A stretch of DNA of 49,619 nt from Spirochaetota bacterium (GCA_011049595.1 DRHN01000500.1:1-49619), one strand, 5' to 3'; counted from the stretch's first letter, positions 11,836-49,619 are shown. Notes: generated by a model from the sequence alone, not told the origin. A program made the numbers and translations.

Positions 11836-12990
11836 TCAGAACTCTCTTTTTGTCCAGTCTGACGGGTCGACGTAAATTCCATTTACAAAAATGCCCCAGT
11901 GAAGGTGGTTCCCCTCGGCGATACCGGTTGAACCCACTTCACCAATTTTTTCTCCCTTTTCCACTCTGTCGCCGATACTTACACTTGTCGAATCAAGATG
12001 AAAATACAGAGAAAACACACCCAGCCCGTGATCGATCACAACTGAATTGCCCGTTGTAATTCTCACATCCGAAAACACAACATCACCCCTGTTCGCCGAA
12101 AATACCGGATCTCCCTTTCCCCCCTTTAGATCCATCCCCCTGTGATAACGTGTGAAAGAGTTTGAGTTTTCAATATAATAGATCCTCTTCTTTCCGAACG
12201 CCGAATTCGTTACAGGCTCTTTAACAGGGTATAAAAAAAGGTCTTCCCAGAGTGCCTGGCTGCCGGGTTTTGAAAGTATCCCAGCCAATATCTTTCGTTC
12301 TTTTCTTTTCTGCTCGGAGTCCGCGAAAAGGGCCAGCATATCTTCAGTAAGCGTTACCTCTCCTTTGCCGTAATTTAGCGATTTTAGAAAAAAGGGATAG
12401 ATGATCTCAGAATAATCTCCGTTTTTTGACTTAACAGTTATCGTAAGCCTGTACTTTACCGGCGGGGCCCCAACATCAAAACCTGTCAGGGCCCTGTAAA
12501 TACCGTTACCAACATCATAGAATGTCAGTTTGTTTGAATAGCCGCTGTCATTTTTAATTGCTGAACTTATATTTATACCGCCGATTTGACTGTCCTCCGG
12601 TATGTTTACTATTACTTTCATAGTCTTCCCTTGAACCGGATCGGGAGAAAAATAAAAAGGAAGATCATAAAACTCACCGGAGGCAGACTGGGATAATTTT
12701 CCGTAAATAAGGACAGGTTTTTTTTTGATCTTCAGCACACTGTACGGGTACAGCTTATAGATCCTATCCTTATTACGGAAAACGATTTCGCTGTCCCCGT
12801 GGGTCTTAACAAAGATATCTTCTGTTAATTTACCTCCCTTTCTGACACGGGCGTAGGGGTCCGGGTCTTTTCGCGCGAGCACATTTCCAAAAACATGAAC
12901 AATATCCAGCTCTTCAGCATGTACACATTCCAGTACAAAGATAAAACAGACCGTTGTAATAATAAAAATTTTAAATGTAATTCTTTTCAA
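11836..12990 (-). CDS. Secreted M23-family (LytM-type) metallopeptidase
   Basis: N-terminal signal peptide. C-terminal HRGMDL (HxxxD) and GNHLHWG (HxH) motifs, GEVGSTG. Confidence 0.85.
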   Translation of the reverse strand: MKRITFKIFIITTVCFIFVLECVHAEELDIVHVFGNVLARKDPDPYARVRKGGKLTEDIFVKTHGDSEIVFRNKDRIYKLYPYSVLKIKKKPVLIYGKLSQSASGEFYDLPFYFSPDPVQGKTMKVIVNIPEDSQIGGINISSAIKNDSGYSNKLTFYDVGNGIYRALTGFDVGAPPVKYRLTITVKSKNGDYSEIIYPFFLKSLNYGKGEVTLTEDMLALFADSEQKRKERKILAGILSKPGSQALWEDLFLYPVKEPVTNSAFGKKRIYYIENSNSFTRYHRGMDLKGGKGDPVFSANRGDVVFSDVRITTGNSVVIDHGLGVFSLYFHLDSTSVSIGDRVEKGEKIGEVGSTGIAEGNHLHWGIFVNGIYVDPSDWTKREF

Positions 12991-15966: not shown

Positions 15967-16713
15967 TTATACAAGGGTAAGTATTTCCGGTTCTCCATCG
16001 TTTACTAAGATTGTATGCTCAAAATGCGCGGAAGGTTTGCCGTCCTTGGTCACAACTGTCCAGTTGTCCTTTTTAATCGATACTTCGAAACCGCTCATGT
16101 TGACCATAGGTTCGATCGCGAGAGTCATACCGGAAAGTAACCGAGGGCCCCGCCCCGGAGTTTTGTAATTCGGGATGGGGGGCTCTTCGTGCAGTTTTTT
16201 CCCTACACCATGCCCCACAAAGTCTCTCACAACCGAAAAGCCGCTGCTTTCTACAAGATCCTGAATTGTTTTTGATATATCTGCCACGTGGTTTCTATGA
16301 ACCGCTTTTTGTATTCCCGCGTAGAGGGACTCTTGGGTCACCTTGAGAAGTTTTTTCGTCTCATCTGATATTTGTCCGATCGCAATAGTGGATGCAGCGT
16401 CCCCGAAATACCCCGCTTTTTTCACTCCCACATCAACACTGAGGATATCCCCCTCTTTAAGACGATACTTTCCCGGGATCCCGTGGATCACTTCCTCATT
16501 GACCGAGGTACAAATTGAGGCGGGAAAACCGTTGTAGTTTTTAAATGCCGGAATTGCCCCTTTTTTCATAATGAACTCTTCGGCTTTACCGTCAAGCCAT
16601 ACGGTACTTACCCCGGGTTTTGTTATTTCACTTAGATAAATAAGCAGCTCGCCTGCAATCCTGCAGGCCTGCTTTATATAAACAATTTCTGTGCTGTTTT
16701 TCAGTTCATGCAT
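15967..16713 (-). CDS. map: Type I methionine aminopeptidase
   Basis: VIHGIPG, DVGVKKAGYFGD, GHGVGKKLHEEP, EPMV, HFEHT metal-ligand motifs. Confidence 0.95.
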   Translation of the reverse strand: MHELKNSTEIVYIKQACRIAGELLIYLSEITKPGVSTVWLDGKAEEFIMKKGAIPAFKNYNGFPASICTSVNEEVIHGIPGKYRLKEGDILSVDVGVKKAGYFGDAASTIAIGQISDETKKLLKVTQESLYAGIQKAVHRNHVADISKTIQDLVESSGFSVVRDFVGHGVGKKLHEEPPIPNYKTPGRGPRLLSGMTLAIEPMVNMSGFEVSIKKDNWTVVTKDGKPSAHFEHTILVNDGEPEILTLV

Positions 16714-17161
16714 CCTGGGAAGGTACCTTTTTTTGTGCTTCCTCTTTTTCCTTTTTGATCACCTCCTCAAGTTGAGGACCTGCCTGATAAGATTCTTCGA
16801 TTATATTACGTATCCCTTTCCTCTGTCCGCCGCTGATGGAAATTTCCCCTTCAACCACAACTCCATCTTCAATATTAACCTTGGGCGCCTTGATATTTCC
16901 TAAAACCCTGCCTGTCGATAGTAGAGATACTTCCTCATCTGCCTCGATATTACCGATAACAGTGCCCCCGACCGTTACTCTTTTCGCTGAAATGTCGGTT
17001 TTTACTTTCCCAGTCTCACCTACAATGAGATGCTCTTTTGTTCGGATGTCACCTTCAAACCTGCCGTCGATCTCGAGTGATCCGTTAATATAAAATTTAC
17101 CCTCAAAAATTGAGCCATCCCCTATAACACTGTTCAATTGCGAATCATTTTTTGATGCCAT
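16706..17161 (-). CDS. Bactofilin (polymer-forming cytoskeletal protein)
   Basis: Beta-helical repeat core GSIFEGKFYINGSLEIDGRFEGDI...GKVKTDISAKRVTVGGTVIGNI...GRVLGNIKAPKVNIEDG. Start set to ATG 17161 (MASKND), 7 nt after GGGGAGG. Charged C-terminal tail. Confidence 0.85.
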   Translation of the reverse strand: MASKNDSQLNSVIGDGSIFEGKFYINGSLEIDGRFEGDIRTKEHLIVGETGKVKTDISAKRVTVGGTVIGNIEADEEVSLLSTGRVLGNIKAPKVNIEDGVVVEGEISISGGQRKGIRNIIEESYQAGPQLEEVIKKEKEEAQKKVPSQDA

Positions 17162-17214
17162 TAAAAACCTCCCCGGCTTTATAAACATTCGGTAATATTT
17201 TAATAGTTATGAAA

Positions 17215-18414
17215 TTAAATTAAAATTTTCTTTTTTACAATGTTTTCAATATACTTCCAATCCAGTTCATTTATCTCCTGGAATTTTACACCGTATTCAA
17301 AAACATCTTCCTCTATTCTGTAAATGACACCTCTTGCTTCAACCACCCGTTCCGGAAAGGAAATAGACATCTGAACAATTGTGTCGTTAATAATATATTG
17401 CTTCAGCTCCGGTTTTTCGAGTTTAAACAACAGCCCGCCCGCACTTATATTGACCACGGGGATTTCATAACCGGCGCCGCTGTCAAGATGGAAATAGTCA
17501 TATTTCACAAGAGCCTCGACAAGGATGTCGGCATACCCTGCCGCTTTTAAAGCATAAACAGGTTTAATACTTCTGTGATAGTCGACGTCATTAATAAGCC
17601 TTATATATCCTGCGGTATCTCCTTCGATCATGAGAGGTATAAAACAGTCGGAAAAAATCCTCTGATTCCTCTTTTCCTGAAGAAGATCCAGAAGTTTCGA
17701 CTCCGCTATATTGCGTGGGTCTCCCGTTTTAATCAGATAATCAAGAGCGCTTCCGAAAGTCAATATTTCCTCATCAAGAAACCTTCTTTCGACGATGCTG
17801 TCCTCAAAAGAATCATAAATTAGAAATATTTTTTTTGTTTTTTTTATCAATTGCTCCTCAAGTGTATATTTTTGATCCGGTTTAAAGACTTTCAGACTGA
17901 ACTTCTGTGAATATTCAGATACAAGCTGTTTTATTCCACCAAGTATCTTATCGACCGCCGGTCTGGGTTTTTTAGCCTCCTGGTATATCACCCTCTCATC
18001 CAGCAAAGAAGACGTCTCAAAATCGTGTTTTACCGATTGTATCATAATCTTTACTTTCATAAACACTTTACCGAGAACATTGAACCTTGTGTACTTCCTT
18101 ATAAGATTTTTATTTATTATTTCAGGAAAAATGAGGAGAATGTGGTTCTCATCGAGCTGGCTGGCATTTGTATTGAAGTAATGATAATTATTGTGAAACG
18201 TAAAGTTTGTTTTCAGGTCATAACCAATTTCACCGATAAAAGGAGACATAACTTTAAGGGTAATTGTTTCATCGGTAAAACTCTCAATTACACCCGGGTA
18301 TTCGATCCCGTCTATCATGATGTTAAGAGGTTCTTTCATTTTCTTGAGCCTCTGAAAAATAAGGTTTTTTTCGAGATCACTTGTTACGACCATTTTTTTC
18401 GGCAGTTCACTCAT
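17215..18414 (-). CDS. PilZ-like domain protein (atypical; putative c-di-GMP receptor)
   Basis: C-terminal beta-barrel segment with NISAGG (D/NxSxxG). An RKYTR (RxxxR) motif exists but lies ~220 aa upstream. The ATG overlaps the stop of the upstream cyclase gene (ATGA, 18411-18414). Confidence 0.5.
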   Translation of the reverse strand: MSELPKKMVVTSDLEKNLIFQRLKKMKEPLNIMIDGIEYPGVIESFTDETITLKVMSPFIGEIGYDLKTNFTFHNNYHYFNTNASQLDENHILLIFPEIINKNLIRKYTRFNVLGKVFMKVKIMIQSVKHDFETSSLLDERVIYQEAKKPRPAVDKILGGIKQLVSEYSQKFSLKVFKPDQKYTLEEQLIKKTKKIFLIYDSFEDSIVERRFLDEEILTFGSALDYLIKTGDPRNIAESKLLDLLQEKRNQRIFSDCFIPLMIEGDTAGYIRLINDVDYHRSIKPVYALKAAGYADILVEALVKYDYFHLDSGAGYEIPVVNISAGGLLFKLEKPELKQYIINDTIVQMSISFPERVVEARGVIYRIEEDVFEYGVKFQEINELDWKYIENIVKKKILI

Positions 18415-20648
18415 CTGAAGGTTTCCTTTTTAGCTTTTTCTCTGATTCTTGCTTCAAGAATTTCCATATATATGTCCATGAGCTCCGGATCATATTTCTT
18501 ACCCGACCCCTCCTTCATAATTTCAATCGCCTTTGCCGCGGTAAAAGGGTTTCTAAACGGTCTTTTTGAGATCAAGGCGTTATAATTGTCGACAATACAT
18601 ACCACTCTTGCCCAGAGAGGTATCTCTACACCTTTCAGCCTGTCAGGATACCCGGATCCGTCCCAGAATTCGTGGTGATGTTTAACAAGTTCAACACCTT
18701 CTTTGAATAGATGGAGTTTCTTTTCAACATACTCGGCACCCCTGAGAACATGGCTTTTGATCAGATCAAACTCCTCGGGTGTCAGTTTTTCTTTTTTATT
18801 AAATACCCGTTCGTTTATCCCTATTCTGCCGACATCAATAAGCATGGCGGACGCCCTGAGCTTTGTCAGATCCTCACTGGACAATCCAAGTTTTACACCT
18901 ACCACCTCTACATCCTGTGCTACGTTAAGAAAATGACCGATTATGTAGGGTTCACGTTTTTCGACAACCCGGAGATACTTTCGCGCTATCATCTCCTTTA
19001 TTTCAAATACCTCGATCTGCTGTTCCCTGCCTTTAACAGCAAGAGAAGTGAGATAGTCCGCTTCGACCAGATACTTTACTTCATCAAAGACTTCCTTCGT
19101 TACCAGGATCTGCCCTTTTGCAGCCTGCCCCTCGAGACGAGATGCTGTGTTCACAGCATCCCCTATAACAGTGTAGTCCATTCTGTCAACTGATCCCATA
19201 TTTCCTGATATGACAAACCCGGTGTTGATCCCGATCCCTATTTCAACACGCTCCAGCCCCTCCTTGTCCCTCTTTGCATTTATAGCTTCTATGTACTCCT
19301 GCATTTCAACAGCAGAAAAAACAGCACGTTCGGTGTCGTTGTAGTGGGAGATCGGGGCGCCAAATACTGCCATGACACAATCACCCATGTACTTGTCAAG
19401 AGTACCCCCGTACTTAAAAACAACCCCGGTCAAACCTGAAAGATAGGTGTTCAGCAGGTCAACAACCTCTTCCGGCCTCATCTTTTCAGCCATTGTGGTA
19501 AATCCTCTTATATCAGCGAAAAGAACGGTTATTTTCCTTCGCTCGCCCCCGAGTTTTAATTTACCGGGATCAGAAAGGATCCCGTCAACAAGCTGATGAT
19601 CGACATACCTTGAAAAGGCATACCTGAGGTTGGTTAATTTCGAGGCTTCGATCGCCATGACCATCTGCTGAGCGATACCGTGTATTGAATCGAACACTTT
19701 TTGCGTGTAGGGTTTAAGATTGATTCTTTCACCCAGAGCCAAAATACCGACAACCTCATTTTTCAATAATAAAGGGACCAGGGTTTGAGTTTCAAGCTCC
19801 GACAATATATCTTTTTCTTCGACGGACAGCACATCCATCAGTTCCGAAACAAATATGTGTTTTTTTTTCCGTCTCAACTCCTGTACAAATATCAATTTTT
19901 CTGCGATTGTGACCTTATCGATCAACTTTTTTTCCAGGCCGCGGGAAGCCACGATAGAATACTCGGTGTTATTTTCATTCATGGATAAAAAAATCACCGC
20001 TGTTTTGCTCAAAGCTCTTCCCATTACATTTAGTAAAAAGGTGCCGAAAAAATCCTCCTTGCCCAATGATGTCAGATCACTACCCATACCGGTCAGCTCT
20101 TTCAACTCAAACGCCTTTCTTCTGAGCTCCTTCCCCTCTTTTTTACTTGTCTTTTGAGTGTTGAGGATGCATGCCATTCTTAAAACTACCGTGCTGCAGA
20201 CTGTAGAGAGAAAATCGATTTCCTCTTTATCGATCGCCCCCAGGATATCGCTTGCCCACAATATTGAAAAGTGGGTTATGGCTTGATCTCTTTTTTTTGG
20301 GATTATTAAAAAAGATGAGTTAAAATCAATGTTGTGTCCGCCGATTTTATCAACAAGGAACCTGACACCCCTTTGATCAATAACACTCCAGTCAAGTTTA
20401 TTGACCTCCGCGACAAACTTGGGCTGGAGAAAGAACGGCAGTATTTTCTGTACAGTATCATCGAGAACCGCTGACTCGTATACTTTGTTTACATCCAGAT
20501 CAATAAACGCGTACTGCACCTCATCACCAATCCCCTTTGAAATATGTTTCGAAACATAAGGCGGAATATCTTCAGGATCATTGATGCCGGATATCTCTCT
20601 TGCGACCCTTTCCACGATCGAAAGGTAGTTCGCTTGCTTTGTGTCCAT
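18411..20648 (-). CDS. GAF - class III adenylate cyclase - HD-GYP three-module signalling protein
   Basis: GAF-like end LVPLLLKNEVVGILALGE. Cyclase core VLFADIRGFTTMAE...LDKYMGD...DYTVIGDAVNTASRLE (Lys/Asp pair suggests ATP). HD-GYP: HHEFWDGSGYPDRL, but LIDVGRIG where LHDIGK is expected. Start set to ATG 20648 (MDTKQANY). The 76 upstream codons of the tracked ORF run through a promoter-like region and a 12-bp repeat. Confidence 0.85.
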   Translation of the reverse strand: MDTKQANYLSIVERVAREISGINDPEDIPPYVSKHISKGIGDEVQYAFIDLDVNKVYESAVLDDTVQKILPFFLQPKFVAEVNKLDWSVIDQRGVRFLVDKIGGHNIDFNSSFLIIPKKRDQAITHFSILWASDILGAIDKEEIDFLSTVCSTVVLRMACILNTQKTSKKEGKELRRKAFELKELTGMGSDLTSLGKEDFFGTFLLNVMGRALSKTAVIFLSMNENNTEYSIVASRGLEKKLIDKVTIAEKLIFVQELRRKKKHIFVSELMDVLSVEEKDILSELETQTLVPLLLKNEVVGILALGERINLKPYTQKVFDSIHGIAQQMVMAIEASKLTNLRYAFSRYVDHQLVDGILSDPGKLKLGGERRKITVLFADIRGFTTMAEKMRPEEVVDLLNTYLSGLTGVVFKYGGTLDKYMGDCVMAVFGAPISHYNDTERAVFSAVEMQEYIEAINAKRDKEGLERVEIGIGINTGFVISGNMGSVDRMDYTVIGDAVNTASRLEGQAAKGQILVTKEVFDEVKYLVEADYLTSLAVKGREQQIEVFEIKEMIARKYLRVVEKREPYIIGHFLNVAQDVEVVGVKLGLSSEDLTKLRASAMLIDVGRIGINERVFNKKEKLTPEEFDLIKSHVLRGAEYVEKKLHLFKEGVELVKHHHEFWDGSGYPDRLKGVEIPLWARVVCIVDNYNALISKRPFRNPFTAAKAIEIMKEGSGKKYDPELMDIYMEILEARIREKAKKETFR

Positions 20649-20700
20649 TTGATTGATACCCTTTGATAAATCCCCTTCAGAACATACTATCCGGTTGATA

Positions 20701-20728
20701 TTTATACAATTTATCGCTAAATATGCAA
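20701..20728 (-). promoter_or_regulatory. Candidate sigma70-type promoter of the cyclase gene
   Basis: Minus strand TTGCAT (20728-20723), 16-nt spacer, TATAAA (20706-20701), about 50 nt upstream of the ATG at 20648. Confidence 0.35.
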
Positions 20729-20772
20729 TATTGGTATAACTTATTGTTGCCTGTAAATATATTTGACGCAGA

Positions 20773-20808
20773 AATTGCAGATCAAATTGCAGATCAAATT
20801 GCAGATCA
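20773..20808. repeat. Perfect 12-bp direct repeat x3 (AATTGCAGATCA), each unit carrying a GATC
   Basis: Units at 20773, 20785 and 20797 are identical. They lie between the STAS stop (20888) and the cyclase start (20648), just upstream of the candidate -35. Confidence 0.9.
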
Positions 20809-20887
20809 ATATGAGGCAAAACCAATAGAAAATGCGCGCATTTACGCATATATGGAACATTTATTGTCAGGATCAAAAGAATAACAA

Positions 20888-21607
20888 CTATTTCTTATTT
20901 TTAATAGCAAGTTCAAAACGTTTCTGCCTGTCTAAAAGGTCCATTTCTTTTAATTCTTTTTTTACCGCTCCACCGCCGACTCTAAGACCGCCATACTGTG
21001 GTTCCTTGAGGGCTTTTATGATCTCTTTCAGATCGTAATAAGGATTGTCAACTATAACAGTGATTATTCTTTTCCCCAGGTCGCTTGATGCCGCTGAATC
21101 GGTCTCTGCTTCCGGTTTTCCCGCTTCAGGTGACGGCGAAGGTTCTTTTTTAATCTCCGGGGCAGACTGTGGCGCAGATGTTGGTCCTTTTGCTGTTTCC
21201 CGCGCCGTGACCTGAGGTTTCACGGGCCCCCGGCTTTCTTTTTGGCCCCCCTTCCCTGACAAACTGAGAATAGCATCTTCAATTGATTCGAAAGATTTTA
21301 AGATAGAAGAAAATTCCATCAGCTCATAGACATCAAATACATCAGATGACATGTTGACAAGCACAAGATCACCGTTGTTTTCCCGTATTTCCCTTATCTC
21401 ACTGACAAAAACCCCCCACCCCGCACTGCTCACATAATCTATATTTTCCAAATTTACAATTATTCTGTATTTATTGAGCGCTAACTGCTCCTCCAGCCTT
21501 TTCTCCAGATCAGGTGCAGTTGTTGTATCAATAAACCCGCGCGCAGAGATTATCGCAATCTCTTCATCTTTTCCTGTATATGTAACGTCTACCTGAATGT
21601 CTGCCAT
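20888..21607 (-). CDS. STAS-domain anti-sigma-antagonist-like protein with low-complexity linker and ~57-aa C-terminal module
   Basis: SpoIIAA-like core ARGFIDTTTAPDLEKRL...NLENIDYVSSAGWGVFV. Strong SD GGAGGTGG. Pro/Ser/Ala/Lys-rich linker, then RIITVIVDNPYYDLKEIIKALKEPQYGG... Confidence 0.8.
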   Translation of the reverse strand: MADIQVDVTYTGKDEEIAIISARGFIDTTTAPDLEKRLEEQLALNKYRIIVNLENIDYVSSAGWGVFVSEIREIRENNGDLVLVNMSSDVFDVYELMEFSSILKSFESIEDAILSLSGKGGQKESRGPVKPQVTARETAKGPTSAPQSAPEIKKEPSPSPEAGKPEAETDSAASSDLGKRIITVIVDNPYYDLKEIIKALKEPQYGGLRVGGGAVKKELKEMDLLDRQKRFELAIKNKK

Positions 21608-21701
21608 TCAAACCACCTCCGCTTTATACATTATAATTATTACTCACTCTAAAAATAAATTCAACTGAAAAACAAAAAAAAAATCACAAAATTTATTCCT
21701 T

Positions 21702-21846
21702 ATAATTAGTTCTTGGCACCACGCCGAATAAAACACGGAGTAGCCGTGCATGCCCGGCTTAATTAGTATTTTCACTTTAACCAAGTATTCTTAAGATTAG
21801 TCGCAGTGAAACGGCTCAATATTATTAATTAAGGTAATATAAACAC
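21702..21846. repeat. MITE-like intergenic element, copy B
   Basis: Shares ATAATTAGTTCTTG (21702-21715), TGCCCGGCTTAATTAGTATTTT (21751-21772) and downstream AT-rich blocks with copy A. It has a different, longer insert between the first two blocks. The right-hand inverted repeat is not evident. Confidence 0.55.
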
Positions 21847-21853
21847 TCCTCTA

Positions 21854-24232
21854 TCATTTGTATACAGCCCAGGAGGGCATCTTTCTTTTGGCGAAGGCCA
21901 CTCTCTTTCCCTTCGTGTCAAGCTTCATTCTGATGAGCTCCCGCCGTACGATACTCTCCTTTATTTTATGGCTGCCATATTCCCCGGTGCCCAATAATTT
22001 TGAGATCTTTCCGACGCCATAGTCCGGAAAGAAACGCACAATCTGAACGAGCGCTTTTATCTGGTCATCCGTCGCATGAGTGAGTTCGATCTTTTCCTCT
22101 TTTTCACCCGAATCAACTCTTAACCCCTCATCACCATCTCTTTCCCGCATCTCTTTCAGCACAAGATACTCTTCGTTGGATATACCTGTCTTCTCGAGCG
22201 CTTCCTCCAGAGGATCACCTTCTTCAAGATATTGAAACAGACTGAGCTTTTTTGAATATTTGATCTCGGCAAGACTCATCTCGAGTTTCAGCACAACAAA
22301 AGTAATGTCATCGGTTTGAGGGTACCCCTTGGTAAAAGTCGCGATTTCTTCGTTCAATCTCAATTTGAAGTCCGAAGCAGGCAGATGATTATACTTCTTG
22401 ATAAACTCTATGAGCCTTTTTTCCCCGTACTGCTCTCTTTTTTCATTCATAGCTTCAGTTATACCATCAGTATAAATAAAAAGAATGTCACCCTTTTTTA
22501 ATTTGAGCTTCTCGCTTGTTATCCTCTTGTTAAACTCCTCCGGGTCACCCAGGTCAATACCAACTGCTATCCCTCCCGGGTTTAAAAAACTCACTGATTT
22601 TGTCTCGTCCCTGTAAAGGATCATCGGGTTGTGACCCGCGCTTGCAAAATTCACTGACCTCTTTTTTGAATCCAGAATAACATAGAACATCGTGATATAC
22701 ATTCCCTTTCTAATATCGCCGATAGCAACCCTGTTCACCTTGTCCAGTACGTAGCTTGCCCTTTTGTTTCCCCTGGCCTCGAGCCTCATCGCAGTCCTGA
22801 TCATTGTCATGACCATTGAGCTGCCGATACCTTTACCGGAAACATCAGCGACTACTATCCCAATGGAGTTTTCATCCACTTCAAAAAAATCGTAATAATC
22901 CCCTCCTACCTCCAGAGCTGCCCTGTAGGCAGCGTCAATCTCAAACCCCTCGAGCTTGGGTACTTCTTTTGGTAAAAGTGCGTTCTGGATTTCCTGCGCT
23001 AGCTGCAGCTCTCTCCTCAATCTTGTCTGGTCGGTCAGCTGTCCCTGGGTGATTCTTAAATTCCTCATGATCTCATTAAAAGCTTCACCAATTCTGCTGA
23101 CTTCGGGGTTCCCGGCCTTCAATTTTAATTCCCGGGCCTGTCCCGTCATGCTTACCCTTGAGATTTCATCAGCAAGCTTACGGATCGGCACAATGAATGT
23201 CGAACCGATCACAAACACGCCGATTATGGTTGTGCTCCAGAAAAATATTGCGATGAAAGCAACACGCAGGCGCTGGGTCACCATATCGCTCACCTCGATA
23301 AATTTATCTTCCGGGATGCCCAGATGCACTTCCCCGAGCTTTAAATCTTTGTATTTTACGACAGCGACAAAATCATTGTATGTCTTTCTGTCCCTCCCAG
23401 TGTAGGTGAATACAACTACCGGCTCTTTTGCACTTAAGGGTCTTACCCCGGGCGGTCTGTTATAAGTGCTGAAGATCTGTTTTACATCGGTATGAGCAAC
23501 GATACGTTCATTAGAGTCTGTTATTATTACATATTCAAGCGGCGCTTCGCTCTGTTTTATCGAAGAAACAAGATTTGCGAGTGCCAGATCATCACCCTTC
23601 AGGATAATGTCCAGTGATGTTGCCGCGACCTGACCGGTTACCGACTTATATCTGTCGATAAATTTGTCCCTGATGGTCCTGACCTGGTACCTGGTCCCGA
23701 AATTATACAGGACAACTACCAGGAATGTTATCAGCGCAACCGCATAAAGCGCAAACCTTACCCTGATCGAGACCCTTTGTTTCAAACCCCCCAGCATACC
23801 AGGTGCACCAAGGGTCTCCAGGTAAACTTTCATGGAAAGTATATTTGTTCCTTCAACCCGGCTGTATTCAACTTCATCGATCAGTTTTTTGATAAGCCAG
23901 ATCCCGAGCCCGCCTTTTCTTCTTGTTTCAACGTACTTGTAAAGATCAGGTTCAAGGACCGAGTGCCAGTCGAATGCGACGCCCTGATCTTTTATTTTAA
24001 TCACTACCGAATCCTCCTGCCGGATCATCTCTACCTGGAAACCGCCTTTTTTACCTTCATACGCGTGTCTGATAATGTTCGACACAGCTTCATCAACACC
24101 GAGTTTCACTTCACTTACCTGTTTTAGCGTAAGGCGCATTTTTCGTCCGTATTTTATGACAAAGTTACGGACCCTGAGCAGATTTTTACCTTCGGCGCTG
24201 AGACTTAATTTTTTTGATTTTCCAGTCTTCAT
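21854..24232 (-). CDS. Fusion protein: RsbW/SpoIIAB-type Ser kinase (HATPase) - 2 TM sensor loop - HAMP - SpoIIE/PP2C phosphatase - C-terminal ~57-aa module
   Basis: N-box EAVSNIIRHA, DQGVAFD, GGLGIWLI. TM segments ALYAVALITFLVVVLY and AFIAIFFWSTTIIGVFVIG. HAMP PIRKLADEISRV. PP2C EVGGDYYDF, ADVSGKGIGSS, ASAGHNP, YTDGITEA, DDITFVVL. Confidence 0.85.
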   Translation of the reverse strand: MKTGKSKKLSLSAEGKNLLRVRNFVIKYGRKMRLTLKQVSEVKLGVDEAVSNIIRHAYEGKKGGFQVEMIRQEDSVVIKIKDQGVAFDWHSVLEPDLYKYVETRRKGGLGIWLIKKLIDEVEYSRVEGTNILSMKVYLETLGAPGMLGGLKQRVSIRVRFALYAVALITFLVVVLYNFGTRYQVRTIRDKFIDRYKSVTGQVAATSLDIILKGDDLALANLVSSIKQSEAPLEYVIITDSNERIVAHTDVKQIFSTYNRPPGVRPLSAKEPVVVFTYTGRDRKTYNDFVAVVKYKDLKLGEVHLGIPEDKFIEVSDMVTQRLRVAFIAIFFWSTTIIGVFVIGSTFIVPIRKLADEISRVSMTGQARELKLKAGNPEVSRIGEAFNEIMRNLRITQGQLTDQTRLRRELQLAQEIQNALLPKEVPKLEGFEIDAAYRAALEVGGDYYDFFEVDENSIGIVVADVSGKGIGSSMVMTMIRTAMRLEARGNKRASYVLDKVNRVAIGDIRKGMYITMFYVILDSKKRSVNFASAGHNPMILYRDETKSVSFLNPGGIAVGIDLGDPEEFNKRITSEKLKLKKGDILFIYTDGITEAMNEKREQYGEKRLIEFIKKYNHLPASDFKLRLNEEIATFTKGYPQTDDITFVVLKLEMSLAEIKYSKKLSLFQYLEEGDPLEEALEKTGISNEEYLVLKEMRERDGDEGLRVDSGEKEEKIELTHATDDQIKALVQIVRFFPDYGVGKISKLLGTGEYGSHKIKESIVRRELIRMKLDTKGKRVAFAKRKMPSWAVYK

Positions 24233-24496: not shown

Positions 24497-26359
24497 TCAA
24501 TCTAAAACTCTCAGATTTAAAAACGAAAACTCATTATTCTTATCCAGTCTGAGAGATTCCTTGTACGCCTTCGCAGCTTCCCTGGAATTTCCAGAATAAT
24601 GCTGAGCCACGCCTAAAATCGTGTATAGATCAGAAAGTGCAGAAAAGTCCAGCTTAATATCACTTTCGAGGCATTTTTGTACGGTCCGGATGGCACTCTC
24701 ATATCTTCCAGCCTCGATATATTTCAGCGACAGGTTGAAATAAGCTTCATATCTGTATGGAAAATCACGGACCAATTCATGGTACAGATCAAAAGCCTTT
24801 TGATCGTTTTCTACTTCCGCCTGGAACAGGGACAGCCTGTAGTACTGTCCGGTGTGGTCCACAATATTTTTAGCATTAACCAAAAAATCTCTTGTTTTAT
24901 CAGTATGCCCAGTTTTCATGTAGATCTCTGCGATCTCCATATAGGGTATGTAATTTCCGGGTTCTAAAGACAGCATCCTGTGATAGAGCTGAAGGGCGTT
25001 GTTGTTCAGCTCATTTTCCTGATACAGCTCAGCGGCCATTGAAAGATAGCGCAGATCCTCCCCGGCTAATAGAACCGCTTTTTCAACCAGCTCGCGTCCC
25101 TCGGGCTTCCGTTCAATATTGAAGTAAACATCAGCAAGACATATATAAGGCATAGGTCCGTCAGGGGCGCTGCTTATGAGTTCCTCACTTAAATCGACTG
25201 CTTCACTGTATCTTTTTTCTTTTATATAAATATTTACAAGATTCCTGAAAGCACCTTCATTCTCCGGGTTCTGCAGAGCTTTTATATAATATTTTTCCGC
25301 TTCCCGCAGCTCACCCAGTTTTATGTATATATCACCGATAATGTGCGCGATAGAAGTGTCACCTGTACGCTCGAACATGTCAAGATAAAGATCAAGCGCT
25401 TCAGCTAGATTTTCACTTTTAAACAGAGCCATTCCAAGCAGAGTATCAACATCCTCCTCCTTCAGCGTTCTGTCCACGGATCTCAACAGATCGACAGATT
25501 CCCGGTACTTCTTCTGTTTCATGAGAAGAAGAGCAAGATTGTACCTTAGAACGGGGTTCGATGGGAATACATTCAGGGCAGCTCTCAGGTACCTGACAGC
25601 CCTGATTGGGTCACTTTCCCCTAAAATACTGCTTAGTGTGAAATAGCTTACCCCTTTCAGGCTCTCCTCTGAATCGGGATCCTCAATTACTCTGCTCAGC
25701 AAATTAGCCGCATCCTCCGGTCTGTCGAGATTTAAATATGCTGCAGCTGCATTGATCCTGAACACCCCGTCCACATTTTCATGACCTTCATATATCGATA
25801 ATGCCTTTTCATATTTTCGGGCCGCGTAATAGATATTCCCGAGAAGCAGAAGATTCGGCGCGTATTCTTTCTGCAGCTTATAAATCTTCAACACATTTTC
25901 CAGGGTCAATTCGGGATCACCCATTTTCATATAAGACTGCGCGCTGTTGAACAGAGCGAATACATTTTTTTTATCATAGGAAAGAGACTCTTGAAAATAC
26001 TCAATGGCGCCGCTGTAATTACCCCCTTTATACTCTATATTCCCCAGATAGAGAAAAGCTATGCTGTCCATTTTTTTCCGGTTCGAGCCAACGGAGGCCC
26101 TTTTCAGCAGGATCCGGGCTCTTTCGTAATTTTCTAACCTGTAATGATTTATACCCTCGATGAGATCTCTGTTAAGATAGTCGATACTATCGTCTCGAAA
26201 ACCCTCCCTTTTATTTATCGCGAAATACACCAGAATACTGATTACCAACGGCAGTACGACGCCAGTGTACAGAAGGATCTTCCCGTGTTTTAAATAAAAG
26301 TCTTTTGCCGCAGTTAATAAATTCTTGAAATAGGGAAGGTGTTGTTCCTTTTTATCCAT
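24497..26359 (-). CDS. Membrane-anchored TPR-repeat protein
   Basis: One N-terminal TM segment (ILLYTGVVLPLVISILVYFAI) followed by many TPR-like repeats (A..YL.LG..Y...G.Y..AI..F..AL pattern). Confidence 0.8.
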   Translation of the reverse strand: MDKKEQHLPYFKNLLTAAKDFYLKHGKILLYTGVVLPLVISILVYFAINKREGFRDDSIDYLNRDLIEGINHYRLENYERARILLKRASVGSNRKKMDSIAFLYLGNIEYKGGNYSGAIEYFQESLSYDKKNVFALFNSAQSYMKMGDPELTLENVLKIYKLQKEYAPNLLLLGNIYYAARKYEKALSIYEGHENVDGVFRINAAAAYLNLDRPEDAANLLSRVIEDPDSEESLKGVSYFTLSSILGESDPIRAVRYLRAALNVFPSNPVLRYNLALLLMKQKKYRESVDLLRSVDRTLKEEDVDTLLGMALFKSENLAEALDLYLDMFERTGDTSIAHIIGDIYIKLGELREAEKYYIKALQNPENEGAFRNLVNIYIKEKRYSEAVDLSEELISSAPDGPMPYICLADVYFNIERKPEGRELVEKAVLLAGEDLRYLSMAAELYQENELNNNALQLYHRMLSLEPGNYIPYMEIAEIYMKTGHTDKTRDFLVNAKNIVDHTGQYYRLSLFQAEVENDQKAFDLYHELVRDFPYRYEAYFNLSLKYIEAGRYESAIRTVQKCLESDIKLDFSALSDLYTILGVAQHYSGNSREAAKAYKESLRLDKNNEFSFLNLRVLD

Positions 26360-47596: not shown

Positions 47597-47914
47597 TCAG
47601 CTAACCTTCATCCATCCCTTTTTCACGTTTTTGTCAATAAACTCTTTTGCGACGCTCATTATCTGACCTTTGCTGCTCGACACACGCACTTCCCTTTTTA
47701 ACATGTCAGCCCTGCCCGCGCTGAAATTTGTGTAGTGCATCACGTATGCCGGAAACCTGCTGTCTTCTTTCTCCTTGTTTGTCATCCACACAACATACTT
47801 CTGGACCATCAGCTTTTCGTTGCCCCCTTTTTTGTACACCTCCCGCATGATAACATCATGCTCAGGCAGGCTCACTTCAACAACCACAACCGGCTGTACC
47901 ATCCGGAATGCCAC
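47597..47914 (-). CDS. Hypothetical 105-aa protein, weakly WGR-domain-like
   Basis: YVMHYTNFSAGR...SSSKGQIMSVAKEFIDKNVKKGW resembles the WGRxG...A...F...K..KGY layout of WGR domains. Similarity is weak and judged by eye only. Confidence 0.35.
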   Translation of the reverse strand: MAFRMVQPVVVVEVSLPEHDVIMREVYKKGGNEKLMVQKYVVWMTNKEKEDSRFPAYVMHYTNFSAGRADMLKREVRVSSSKGQIMSVAKEFIDKNVKKGWMKVS

Positions 47915-48109
47915 ATGGTTTGAATCACTTTCAATGTAATCCGGGTGTTTGATTATGCAAGATCAGGTCGATGATCTTTGTTATGTCCGAGCACGCTTAT
48001 ATCTGCAATAGATTTGCAGTCCTCAAGTTCCACTATCAATTATTTACAATGTATAGTTACAGATAGGGGATGGCTTTCATTCAAATGGATCCCATACTCG
48101 TTTAAACCC

Positions 48110-48247
48110 AAAGCCTTGAAAATGCTTTTGGTTACGAGTCGTGAATTCTGTTACCCCGTGCCCAAGCCAAATCAGATATGGAGTTGGGATATAACGTATC
48201 TGAGGAGTTGTGCGGATGTAGTTCAATATCGTTTCATACCCATATGA
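48110..48247 (+). pseudogene. Remnant of an IS3-family (DDE/rve) transposase
   Basis: Translation ...FCYPVPKPNQIWSWDITYLRS carries the characteristic PNQxWxxDITY(I/L)R motif that starts the IS3 OrfB catalytic domain. The reading frame ends 14 codons later and no continuation is found in any frame. Confidence 0.5.
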
Positions 48248-48523
48248 GGTCAACGGCTGACCGGCCCAATTCTTACTGATCTCCGAATCTACTTCGTATA
48301 TCTTTTTTATCAATGTGACCCAGGTCTGTTTAGACTTCTTAAAAGAGAAAGAGAAAAAGAATTGACTGATAAGCCTTATGGTAGTTAGTTAGTTAATTAA
48401 TATCGGGAGAGGAGGGTCACTGAAAAGCAAGTCAGGTTTGCCGGAAAGTGAGGCAAATGAATGCGTCCCAACCACTCGCTTTACCTGACAGGCGCCTGAA
48501 GTGAATTATATCGCACATGTACT

Positions 48524-48781
48524 TTACCTCTCAAAACCTACTGCAGGTTCGTTTTCTGATAAGTCACAAAGAGAACACAAACATACGCCTTGATAGAGTT
48601 TTGTTGTTATTAAATAATTGAAAGCATCCATAGCATCTTGATCAGTTTTAAAAACAAAAAAAGTCTCAGAATTGTTTTTATTTGCAGTGACGCGTTTTAT
48701 CTTATCAGCGAGCTCACCTGCTACATGAGCAACTAAATCAGAGCTTGTTTCAATTTTCTCAATAAGCATATTATACTCCAC
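48524..48781 (-). CDS. Hypothetical 85-aa protein (orphan)
   Basis: ATG-initiated ORF in AT-rich accessory DNA. No recognisable motif. Confidence 0.35.
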   Translation of the reverse strand: MEYNMLIEKIETSSDLVAHVAGELADKIKRVTANKNNSETFFVFKTDQDAMDAFNYLITTKLYQGVCLCSLCDLSENEPAVGFER

Positions 48782-48930
48782 CCTGATGATTCTCTAAAAC
48801 ATTTAATAGATTATTTTAATAACTCTCTTTCCGCAAGTTAAAAACATGTTTTTTTCGAATTATGGTTTCGCTAAATGATTGTATTACTGACATTTATGAT
48901 GGTTCAATAAATATTGATTTTCGATTTTTG

Positions 48931-49305
48931 TTATAAATAATCTCTTAACTGTCGACTTTTTTTAATTGTTTCTTTTTCATAAGCGTCCAGCAATTCCTTA
49001 AAACTCTTATCAAGTTTTTGAATCTCTTTACGTTTCTTTCGGAACTCTCGGTAATTCCCTGTGGCCTTTTTTATCCAAACAATATCTTTCTCTGGTATTG
49101 CCTTTGTCTTAGAATGACCATTTTCTGACCAGGTAATTCGTCTGAGTAGATGACCAGCTTTATCATGACACCAACAGTTTTGTTTTCCACATTTACGATA
49201 TACTTCGTTAAATGATCCAGGAATTATTAGCCGGGAATTGAGAAGTTCTTTTATGAGCTGAATACGTTTTTTTTCTAGATCTTTTATTTCAATAGTGGTT
49301 GACAT
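48931..49305 (-). CDS. DUF6788-like small protein (CGKQNCWC motif, basic coiled-coil tail)
   Basis: GSFNEVYRKCGKQNCWCHDKAGH...ITWSENGHSKTKAIP matches the pattern seen at 1-216. Divergently arranged with the transposase start, 30 nt away. Confidence 0.6.
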   Translation of the reverse strand: MSTTIEIKDLEKKRIQLIKELLNSRLIIPGSFNEVYRKCGKQNCWCHDKAGHLLRRITWSENGHSKTKAIPEKDIVWIKKATGNYREFRKKRKEIQKLDKSFKELLDAYEKETIKKSRQLRDYL

Positions 49306-49335
49306 CTGTACCTATGATACTATTATATAGTACAG

Positions 49336-49619
49336 ATGTCAAGTGAAAATAGTGAAAACACAGAAAGCTTGCAAAGATTCAATGTTGCAGGCATACCTCT
49401 AATTACCTCCATTGCAGAGCGTTTAGGTTTAAGAGCTATTATCTCAGAATATATCGCTCCCTATGGAAATGAAACGGTTCCTGTTGTCGACACATTGATG
49501 CTTCTTTTGTGCAACATCACTCTTGGGAGACAGCCTCTGTATGAACTCGAACAATGGGTACAACGTATTGATCCCAAGTGTTATGGGTTGAGAATAGAAA
49601 CTTCCGGAATATATAATGA
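49336..49619 (+). CDS. N-terminal part (3' end outside window) of an IS1634/IS4-type DDE transposase (DUF4277-like N-terminus)
   Basis: ATG 49336. MSSENSENTESLQRFNVAGIPLITSIAERLGLRAIISEYIAPYGNETVPVVDTLMLLLCNITLGRQPLYELEQWVQ...IYN, open to the last base. The pattern G.(I/L)PL...(L/I)..RLGL....I...........(V/S)....(M/L)...N.......PLY....W is typical of this transposase N-terminus. Not in the ORF track because it has no stop. Confidence 0.6.
   Translation, partial: MSSENSENTESLQRFNVAGIPLITSIAERLGLRAIISEYIAPYGNETVPVVDTLMLLLCNITLGRQPLYELEQWVQRIDPKCYGLRIETSGIYN

What the first reader, a model, noticed from the sequence alone, without database searches (positions are those of the whole stretch)
16706..24232. 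Five-gene partner-switching / second-messenger / cytoskeleton block with no sigma-factor output
Five consecutive minus-strand genes form this block. (i) 21854-24232 encodes one chain carrying an RsbW/SpoIIAB-type kinase, a two-TM sensor loop, HAMP and a SpoIIE/PP2C phosphatase. (ii) 20888-21607 is a STAS antagonist with the usual phosphorylatable serine context (DYVSSAGWG). (iii) 18411-20648 is a GAF-class III cyclase-HD-GYP protein. (iv) 17215-18414 is a PilZ-like protein whose ATG overlaps the cyclase stop (ATGA). (v) 16706-17161 is a bactofilin that overlaps map by 8 nt. The kinase and phosphatase for the STAS protein sit in the same polypeptide. There is no sigma or anti-sigma target anywhere in the window, so the canonical output of partner switching is missing. 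The next genes encode nucleotide-messenger enzymes, a c-di-GMP-type receptor and a polymer-forming cytoskeletal protein. My inference is that the STAS phospho-state gates the cyclase/HD-GYP protein, and through PilZ it affects bactofilin-dependent cell shape or motility. I do not know of this wiring having been characterised.
Basis: partly seen in the sequence, partly recalled or inferred. Interest (0 to 1): 0.7.

Follow-up and report, generated by a model that had tools for sequence, protein, structure and literature searches.

The report
Sigma-less phospho-switch beside a cyclase operon
The five genes are real, but they form two neighbouring units: a membrane sensor that phosphorylates and dephosphorylates a small STAS protein, both carrying the same DNA-binding-like tail, and a separate operon for a cAMP cyclase, a c-di-GMP receptor and a cell-shape protein; this is a new variant of known signalling schemes, not a new kind.

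Summary
All five minus-strand genes and nearly all domain calls hold, and no sigma or anti-sigma gene lies in the window.

1. The kinase/phosphatase fusion and the STAS protein share a basic C-terminal domain of about 65 aa (hhalign 98.4%). It belongs to the transposase-type HTH_32/HTH_21 group. It is present on both partners in 63 of 66 related loci.
2. The 'PilZ-like' protein is a YcgR^GAZ c-di-GMP receptor, a spirochaete family described in 2025.
3. The HD-GYP domain lacks the HD histidine in all 24 orthologues. The cyclase is an intact class IIIb adenylate cyclase.

Gene order is conserved, but so is the whole ~30 kb including housekeeping genes. One complete genome places the sensor/STAS pair about 2 Mb from the cyclase block. 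One unrelated genomic background keeps sensor–STAS–cyclase without YcgR^GAZ or bactofilin. Hundreds of distant relatives keep only the pair.

My reading is a SypE/SypA- or CapK/CapS-like switch whose output is the STAS–HTH protein, with the cyclase operon as a probable local target. The PilZ-to-bactofilin step is unsupported. I rate this a new variant of a known kind, of moderate interest.

The parts
21854..24232 (-). Membrane sensor with both kinase and phosphatase (792 aa): RsbW-type Ser kinase, TM1, extracytoplasmic Cache, TM2, HAMP, PP2C, then two HTH-like units
   Evidence: Pfam; hydropathy; kinase aligns with RsbW/SpoIIAB; 1842 homologues
23828..24196 (-). HATPase_c_2 kinase domain (aa 13-135), with the N-box (DEAVSNIIRHAY) and GGLG box
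   Evidence: motifs read from the translation
23300..23680 (-). Single-Cache sensor loop (aa 185-311), flanked by TM segments at 23693-23773 and 23183-23269
22283..22873 (-). SpoIIE/PP2C phosphatase (aa 454-650), with the GGDYYD, DVSGKG, TDG and DDIT metal motifs
   Evidence: motifs read from the translation
21875..22105 (-). Shared HTH_32/HTH_21-like tail on the sensor (aa 710-786). It is preceded by an HTH_23/28-like unit at about 22118-22240
20888..21607 (-). STAS protein (239 aa): acidic STAS domain (21272-21568), a low-complexity linker of about 60 aa, and a basic HTH-like tail
21425..21427 (-). Codon of Ser61, the predicted phospho-site; invariant in 15 relatives
20891..21085 (-). Shared HTH_32/HTH_21-like tail on STAS (aa 175-239): four helices, pI 9.6
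21733..21749 (-). Terminator-like hairpin after the sensor gene
   Evidence: consensus scan only
20832..20849 (-). Terminator-like hairpin after the STAS gene
   Evidence: consensus scan only
20772..20809 (.). 12-nt perfect tandem repeat, 3.2 copies, overlapping a -35-like TTGATC upstream of the cyclase gene; strain-variable
18411..20648 (-). GAF-like / class IIIb adenylate cyclase (19014-19538) / degenerate HD-GYP (18480-18971), 745 aa
17215..18414 (-). YcgR^GAZ-type c-di-GMP receptor (PilZN; RxxxR at R106/R110; GAF-like insertion; PilZ barrel with NISAGG). Its start overlaps the cyclase stop (ATGA)
   Evidence: PMC11800159
16706..17161 (-). Bactofilin (151 aa), with a GGGGAGG ribosome-binding site; it overlaps map by 8 nt
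15967..16713 (-). Type I methionine aminopeptidase, translationally coupled to bactofilin (context)
24497..26359 (-). TPR protein with one TM segment, directly upstream of the sensor (context; TPR recurs with this sensor family)

Best explanation
Two units lie side by side.

Unit 1 is a self-contained, sigma-independent phospho-switch. The membrane protein reads an extracytoplasmic signal through its Cache loop and HAMP domain. That signal sets the balance between its N-terminal RsbW-type kinase and its C-terminal PP2C. Together these fix the phosphorylation state of Ser61 on the STAS protein. The STAS protein is the downstream element, as SypA and CapS are in their systems. It carries a basic HTH_32/HTH_21-type domain on a flexible linker, and the sensor carries the same domain. 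I take this domain to be the output or co-localisation device, most likely by binding DNA as in CapK/CapS.

Unit 2 is an operon with its own promoter. It encodes a GAF-regulated adenylate cyclase fused to an HD-GYP domain that has lost the HD histidine and so is probably a sensor rather than a hydrolase. That gene is translationally coupled to a YcgR^GAZ c-di-GMP receptor and is followed by bactofilin and map.

In this lineage unit 1 probably controls unit 2, either transcriptionally through the STAS-HTH protein or by STAS binding the cyclase.

Shown: architectures, conserved catalytic motifs, tail homology and pairing, synteny patterns. Inferred: direction of signalling, DNA binding, and the target.
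For: - Domains and motifs.
- Tail homology: BLASTP 3e-5; hhalign 98.4%, E 6.7e-15.
- Tail pairing: present on both partners in 63 of 66 loci.
- Tail family: only 274 cluster representatives among 1.84 billion proteins, nearly always C-terminal. Of 20 sampled carriers, 11 are STAS proteins, 1 HAMP-SpoIIE and 1 FHA. In the other carriers the matched stretch coincides with HTH_32/HTH_21 scoring above Pfam's cut-offs, after an HTH_28/23 unit.
- Tail model: pLDDT 84, four helices. The nearest folds are HTH DNA binders, including the Sleeping Beauty RED subdomain and Pax paired domains. The tails have pI 9.6-9.9.
- Precedents: CapK (HTH-STAS-kinase) and CapS (STAS-wHTH repressor released by Ser phosphorylation) regulate the adjacent operon (PMC13373217). 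SypE is kinase-REC-PP2C, with the STAS protein SypA downstream of it (PMC10120452).
- Link to the cyclase: the order sensor-STAS-cyclase recurs in a different genomic background, with 43/44/37% identity.
- Operon structure across relatives: STAS to cyclase, median gap 237 nt; cyclase to YcgR^GAZ, -8 to +18 nt; YcgR^GAZ to bactofilin, median 33 nt; bactofilin to map, -8 to -20 nt. A promoter-like TTGAAA-N15-19-TAYAHT lies upstream of the cyclase in 6 of 22 intergenic regions, against 0.1 in shuffles.
Against: - No conserved operator, palindrome or direct repeat is shared by the three intergenic regions or enriched across relatives.
- Foldseek matches for the tail are not significant (best E 3.2).
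- The window's own tails reach no Pfam HTH threshold.
- The pair and the cyclase block are separated in CP070841.1. The cyclase is absent next to the pair in L026.
- In the large distant clade the downstream genes are variable housekeeping genes, so control of the adjacent operon cannot be the general role.
- The tail could instead be a docking domain between enzyme and substrate.
Confidence: 0.45

Rival explanations
1. Unphosphorylated or phosphorylated STAS binds the cyclase/HD-GYP protein directly and gates its activity. The nucleotide signal passes through the PilZ protein to bactofilin and so to cell shape or motility.
For: STAS or STAS-like proteins gate the diguanylate cyclases HsbD, BgrR and SiaD (PMC8457831). 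Sensor-STAS-cyclase adjacency occurs in two backgrounds. The cyclase to YcgR^GAZ to bactofilin spacing is tight in all relatives of this clade. A PilZ protein (REC-PilZ) also flanks the pair in the second lineage.
Against: The enzyme makes cAMP (K419/T493, best matches CyaB and CyaB1), which PilZ domains are not known to bind. No GGDEF domain lies in the block, and the HD-GYP lacks its HD histidine. YcgR-family proteins act on flagellar motor proteins, and no bactofilin link is reported (PMC11800159). Bactofilin is coupled to map inside a housekeeping string, and it is absent next to the trio in L023. The model also leaves the conserved HTH tail unexplained.
Confidence: 0.15
2. Canonical partner switching with an unlinked sigma factor. 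The RsbW-type domain of the sensor sequesters a sigma factor encoded elsewhere, and unphosphorylated STAS releases it.
For: The kinase domain aligns with RsbW and SpoIIAB (NCBIfam). The STAS domain is closest to SpoIIAA- and RsbV-type antagonists. From general knowledge, sigma factors are often unlinked from Rsb-like modules.
Against: No sigma factor was seen within ~10 kb of the pair in any of about 100 loci examined; the survey was not exhaustive. In the fused SypE type, the STAS protein rather than the kinase is the downstream element (PMC10120452). The conserved HTH tails have no role in this scheme.
Confidence: 0.15
3. Neighbours by synteny only. The switch acts elsewhere (or only on itself), and the cyclase / YcgR^GAZ / bactofilin / map operon is functionally unrelated to it.
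For: The whole ~30 kb is collinear, including SurA, NusB, map, AsnRS, M23, PNP and a helicase. The two units are separated in CP070841.1. The intergenic gap is long and carries a terminator-like hairpin and a separate promoter. The distant clade has no cyclase next to the pair.
Against: An orthologous cyclase sits in the same slot directly after STAS in a background where no other flanking gene is shared. Its presence or absence there between genomes whose sensors are 85% identical suggests a specific association.
Confidence: 0.25

Closest known systems
SypE / SypA of Vibrio fischeri (PMC10120452)
   Same: One polypeptide carries an N-terminal RsbW-type Ser kinase and a C-terminal PP2C, with a regulatory module between them. 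It sets the phosphorylation of a STAS protein that is the downstream element. No sigma factor is involved.
   Different: The regulatory module here is two TM segments plus Cache plus HAMP rather than a receiver domain. Both proteins carry an extra HTH-like tail. SypA is a single-domain protein of 105 aa.
CapK / CapS (PMC13373217, 2026)
   Same: An RsbW-like kinase and a STAS protein both carry HTH domains. The STAS-HTH protein binds DNA, and Ser phosphorylation releases it, regulating the adjacent operon.
   Different: CapS has a MarR-like winged HTH directly after the STAS domain. Here an HTH_32/21-type domain follows a disordered linker of about 60 aa. CapK is soluble, is activated by ssDNA and has no phosphatase. 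The context there is anti-phage immunity. No sequence relationship was detected (one search lists no CapS chain).
HsbR-HsbA-HsbD, BgrV-BgrR and SiaABCD (PMC8457831, PMC7647112)
   Same: Partner switching without a sigma output, in which the phospho-state of a STAS or STAS-like protein gates a second-messenger cyclase. SiaA is a membrane HAMP-PP2C.
   Different: Their targets are GGDEF diguanylate cyclases. Here the neighbour is a class III adenylate cyclase fused to a degenerate HD-GYP. Their kinase and phosphatase are separate proteins, or are fused with a REC domain.
RsbU/RsbV/RsbW and SpoIIE/SpoIIAA/SpoIIAB of Bacillus
   Same: The three catalytic and substrate domains are homologous, and the phospho-serine position is equivalent.
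   Different: There is no sigma factor here. Kinase and phosphatase are fused in a membrane sensor. Extra HTH tails are present.
YcgR^GAZ, e.g. LIC_11920 of Leptospira interrogans (PMC11800159)
   Same: PilZN plus a PilZ domain with a GAF-like insertion after RxxxR. DUF1577 match. The c-di-GMP motifs are conserved.
   Different: This is a distinct clade from uncultured marine Spirochaetota. It is always translationally coupled to the cyclase/HD-GYP gene, a context the paper does not report.
Degenerate HD-GYP proteins such as PA2572 (YN-GYP) of P. aeruginosa (recalled from memory, not checked here)
   Same: The GYP signature is retained while the HD dyad is degenerate, which implies a regulatory rather than a hydrolytic role.
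   Different: Here the dyad reads I/V/Y-D, the other metal ligands are kept, and the domain is fused to an adenylate cyclase.

Membership tests
Partner-switching system (RsbW/RsbV/RsbU type) | STAS antagonist with a phosphorylatable Ser at the start of helix 2 | tested here: met
   S61 aligns with SpoIIAA S58 and RsbV S56 and is invariant in 15 relatives. Phosphorylation itself was not tested.
Partner-switching system (RsbW/RsbV/RsbU type) | GHKL Ser kinase of the RsbW/SpoIIAB type | tested here: met
   HATPase_c_2 1.2e-23; aligns with RsbW 6M36 and SpoIIAB
Partner-switching system (RsbW/RsbV/RsbU type) | PP2C/SpoIIE phosphatase | tested here: met
   SpoIIE 1.1e-44, metal motifs present
Partner-switching system (RsbW/RsbV/RsbU type) | A sigma factor held by the kinase | tested here: not met
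   None in the window or in the flanks of related loci. A sigma factor elsewhere in the genome cannot be excluded.
SypE-type bifunctional kinase/phosphatase | Kinase and PP2C in one chain acting on a STAS protein | tested here: met
   (architecture conserved in all of the 120 listed homologues that are full-length)
SypE-type bifunctional kinase/phosphatase | Central receiver (REC) domain as the switch | tested here: not met
   Replaced by TM-Cache-TM-HAMP
CapK/CapS-type STAS transcription factor pair | STAS protein with a C-terminal DNA-binding HTH | tested here: inconclusive
   The tail is homologous to HTH_32/HTH_21 units. It is helical and basic. Foldseek is not significant. DNA binding is untested, and the HTH type differs from CapS.
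CapK/CapS-type STAS transcription factor pair | Operator sites near the adjacent promoter | tested here: not met
   No conserved or enriched repeats in the intergenic regions. Only a strain-variable 12-nt repeat was found.
STAS-gated cyclase systems (HsbD, BgrR, SiaD) | Target is a GGDEF diguanylate cyclase | tested here: not met
   No GGDEF in the block. The neighbour is a class III cyclase.
Class III adenylate cyclase (IIIb) | Two metal-binding Asp, a Lys/Thr substrate pair, and the transition-state Asn and Arg | tested here: met
   D379, D423, K419, T493, N500 and R504 are invariant in 24 orthologues. Best PDB matches are CyaB and CyaB1.
HD-GYP phosphodiesterase | HD metal-binding dyad | tested here: not met
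   His is replaced by I604 (I in 20, V in 3, Y in 1 of 24 orthologues). It aligns with the HD of V-cGAP3, PmGH and PA4781.
HD-GYP phosphodiesterase | HHExxDGxGYP signature | tested here: met
   Invariant
YcgR^GAZ (DUF1577) c-di-GMP receptors | PilZN, then RxxxR, then a GAF-like insertion, then a PilZ barrel with [D/N]xSxxG | tested here: met
   R106 and R110 are invariant; N/D322, S324 and G327 are conserved. Precomputed DUF1577 hit. AF2 pLDDT 86; Foldseek hits PP4397, YcgR and MotI, then GAF domains. Ligand binding was not tested.
Bactofilin | Bactofilin (DUF583) beta-helical core | tested here: met
   PF04519 8.4e-28, full length

The most novel reading that the evidence does not exclude
The shared tail is a domesticated transposase-type DNA-binding unit (bipartite, paired-like, on the sensor; single on STAS). 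If so, a membrane-anchored kinase/phosphatase and its STAS substrate meet on DNA. Partner switching then ends in direct, phosphorylation-controlled DNA binding by the STAS protein rather than sigma release. The family would span Spirochaetota, KSB1 and other phyla, and in this lineage it would drive a cAMP/c-di-GMP operon.
Probability: 0.3. Interest if true: 0.7.

Novelty: new variant of a known kind. Interest (0 to 1): 0.45.

Why it matters
Partner-switching modules without a sigma factor are common in genomes, but their outputs are mostly unknown. Here enzyme and substrate carry the same dedicated HTH-type domain across several hundred metagenomic relatives (514 of 600 pattern matches confirmed). 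That gives a concrete, testable candidate for the output: DNA binding or docking. It would extend the CapK/CapS idea of 2026 from phage defence to environmental sensing by a membrane Cache receptor. The neighbouring operon also pairs an intact adenylate cyclase with an HD-GYP domain that looks non-catalytic and with a YcgR^GAZ receptor. That is a possible point of cAMP/c-di-GMP cross-talk in spirochaetes.

Tried and rejected
- Operator search. I looked for a motif, palindrome or short-spaced direct repeat shared by the three intergenic regions or enriched across relatives. Nothing rose above shuffles.
- The 12-nt triple repeat upstream of the cyclase has only 2 copies in a near-identical contig and is absent from relatives. 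I treat it as a strain-level variable repeat, not a conserved operator.
- The search for homologous proteins with the tail alignment returned only 6 fragments. The exhaustive representative search was needed instead.
- Foldseek on the tail model gave no significant match.
- Rfam found no RNA family in the window.
- The two ~330-aa genes after the cyclase in L023 are not PilZ-like.
- The longer TTG-started ORF for the cyclase (to 20876) and the ATG at 17188 for bactofilin were rejected. The shorter starts match the orthologue alignments and the ribosome-binding site.
- The bactofilin 5 kb from the pair in L024 is separated from it by unrelated genes on the other strand. I took this as coincidence.

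Full report
**Origin.** The window comes from a marine-sediment metagenome contig. Its protein relatives that carry a source name are called uncultured Spirochaetota/Spirochaetes.

**Observation.**
- The five minus-strand ORFs exist as described.
- Profile searches confirm these domains:
  - HATPase_c_2, Cache, (weak) HAMP and SpoIIE in the 792-aa protein;
  - STAS in the 239-aa protein;
  - Guanylate_cyc and HD-GYP in the 745-aa protein, with a GAF-like region supported only indirectly;
  - PilZ in the 399-aa protein;
  - bactofilin in the 151-aa protein.
- Hydropathy gives two membrane segments at aa 154-180 and 322-350, bracketing the Cache loop.
- The kinase domain aligns with RsbW and SpoIIAB.
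- STAS Ser61 aligns with the phospho-serines of SpoIIAA and RsbV.
- The ATGA and ATGCATGA overlaps are in the sequence.
- No ORF of at least 110 aa that I scanned (the long gene-like ORFs; nested antisense ORFs were skipped) has a sigma or anti-sigma domain. The neighbours are housekeeping genes: MutS, MetRS, AsnRS, RtcB, map, NusB, SurA, MetK, EF-G and a trp operon.

- The sensor (aa ~655-792) and the STAS protein (aa ~115-239) both have C-terminal extensions.
- Their last ~65 residues are homologous: BLASTP 3e-5; profile-profile 98.4%, E 6.7e-15.
- An HMM of the tail finds it on both partners in 63 of 66 related loci.
- Against 1.84 billion representative proteins the profile hits only 274, almost always at the extreme C-terminus.
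- Of 20 sampled carriers:
  - 11 are STAS proteins, one is a HAMP-SpoIIE protein and one is an FHA protein;
  - in the others, which include three HTH-HTH-glycosyltransferases, the matched stretch follows a significant HTH_28/HTH_23/HTH_Tnp_1 unit and coincides with HTH_32 or HTH_21 scoring above Pfam's cut-offs.
- Homologues of the sensor also carry an HTH_23/28-like unit just before the tail. The sensor therefore ends in a bipartite transposase/paired-like module, and the STAS protein carries the second unit alone.
- The tail model has pLDDT 84 and four helices. Its nearest folds are HTH DNA binders, including the Sleeping Beauty RED subdomain and Pax paired domains, but none is significant.
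- The tails are basic (pI 9.6-9.9), whereas the STAS domain is acidic (pI 4.1).

- It matches DUF1577.
- R106 and R110 (RxxxR) are invariant, and (N/D)xSxxG at 322-327 is conserved, roughly 210 residues further on.
- The AF2 model (pLDDT 86) hits PP4397, YcgR, MrkH and MotI first and GAF domains next.
- This is the YcgR^GAZ architecture described in 2025. The Leptospira member LIC_11920 binds c-di-GMP through the RxxxR arginines. The wider family is linked to the flagellar motor (PMC11800159).

- The cyclase domain keeps both metal aspartates, the Lys/Thr substrate pair, and the Asn and Arg in all 24 orthologues. It is closest to the adenylate cyclases CyaB and CyaB1.
- The HD-GYP domain keeps HHExxDGxGYP. 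The His of the HD dyad, aligned with V-cGAP3, PmGH and PA4781, is Ile, Val or Tyr in all 24 orthologues.
- Hydrolytic activity is therefore doubtful.

**Gene neighbourhood.**
- In 13 species-level MAG loci and about 25 metagenome loci of this clade, the order SurA-NusB-TPR-sensor-STAS-cyclase-YcgR^GAZ-bactofilin-map-(RtcB)-AsnRS-M23-PNP-helicase is collinear, down to 42% YcgR^GAZ identity. Within the clade, conservation therefore says nothing specific about the five genes.
- Informative exceptions:
  1. In the complete MAG CP070841.1, SurA-NusB-TPR-sensor-STAS lies at 1.04 Mb and cyclase-YcgR^GAZ-bactofilin-map at 3.05 Mb.
  2. In an unrelated background (L023), REC-PilZ, sensor, STAS-with-tail and an orthologous GAF-cyclase-HD-GYP follow each other. 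Identities to the window are 43, 44 and 37%. There is no YcgR^GAZ or bactofilin.
  3. A genome whose sensor is 85% identical to the L023 sensor lacks the cyclase in that slot.
  4. Other relatives have the pair alone.
  5. A large distant clade, including KSB1-type bacteria, has a giant protein, a TPR/OM protein, a longer sensor and STAS-with-tail, followed by variable housekeeping genes.
- The universal unit is therefore the pair. The cyclase is a recurrent but dispensable neighbour. YcgR^GAZ and bactofilin are clade-specific.

**Transcription units.** Across relatives the gaps are as follows:

| Junction | Gap |
|---|---|
| sensor to STAS | median 150 nt |
| STAS to cyclase | median 237 nt |
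| cyclase to YcgR^GAZ | -8 to +18 nt |
| YcgR^GAZ to bactofilin | median 33 nt |
| bactofilin to map | -8 to -20 nt |

The window has terminator-like hairpins after the sensor and after STAS. A promoter-like element precedes the cyclase in 6 of 22 intergenic regions, against 0.1 in shuffles.

**Mechanism.**
- The pair matches the SypE/SypA logic, in which a fused kinase and phosphatase act on a STAS protein that is the downstream element (PMC10120452). Here a Cache-HAMP membrane sensor replaces the receiver domain.
- The HTH-type tail on both proteins parallels CapK/CapS, where a STAS-wHTH repressor is released by Ser phosphorylation and controls the adjacent operon (PMC13373217).
- I therefore favour the STAS-HTH protein as the output and the cyclase operon as its probable local target (confidence 0.45).
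- Direct gating of the cyclase protein, as HsbA, BgrV and SiaC do for diguanylate cyclases (PMC8457831), remains possible.
- The PilZ-to-bactofilin step has no support.
- I found no conserved operator, so DNA binding is inferred, not shown.

**Novelty.**
- Every element has a known relative.
- The new features are the combination (a membrane Cache-HAMP sensor with both enzymes), the paired HTH_32/21-type tail, and the adenylate cyclase/xD-GYP/YcgR^GAZ coupling.
- I rate it a new variant of a known kind, interest 0.45.

Noticed in passing
window 20772-20809: Perfect 12-nt tandem repeat (AAATTGCAGATC, 3.2 copies) overlapping a -35-like TTGATC upstream of the cyclase gene. A near-identical contig from the same study (L001) has only two copies, so the copy number varies between strains.
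   Followed up: partly
window 24497-26359; L025 11289-12404; L067 5930-9889; L063 2666-4639: TPR modules keep turning up with this sensor family. They appear as the upstream gene (here and in the distant clade), as the gene after STAS (L025), or fused to the sensor's C-terminus (L067).
   Followed up: partly
window 11836-12990: An M23 peptidase lies four genes downstream of bactofilin in the same collinear string. Bactofilin-M23 cooperation in morphogenesis is known in other bacteria (PMC10945521).
   Followed up: no
L023 9175-9906 and L026 7138-7866: In the second lineage, a REC-PilZ protein (PilZ 25.3 bits) sits directly upstream of the sensor gene. This is a different PilZ architecture next to the same switch.
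   Followed up: partly
P0279, P0298, P0355: Proteins with two transposase-type HTH units, including a tail-like one, fused to family-2 glycosyltransferases. I do not know of this architecture being described.
   Followed up: no
P0214 (487 aa) and P0220 (661 aa): Proteins made of 5 to 12 tandem copies of the tail domain.
   Followed up: no
L023 15505-16491 versus L026 11352-12329: The gene after the pair is only 40% identical between two genomes whose sensors are 85% identical. It is either evolving fast or has been replaced.
   Followed up: no
window 47600-49619: The end of the window has only short ORFs, some with transposase-like fragments, and a 124-aa Cys/His-rich ORF at 48931-49305. It may be the remnant of a mobile element.
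   Followed up: no
L021 12404-12658: In CP070841.1 an extra 84-aa ORF with no Pfam hit lies between the sensor and STAS genes.
   Followed up: no
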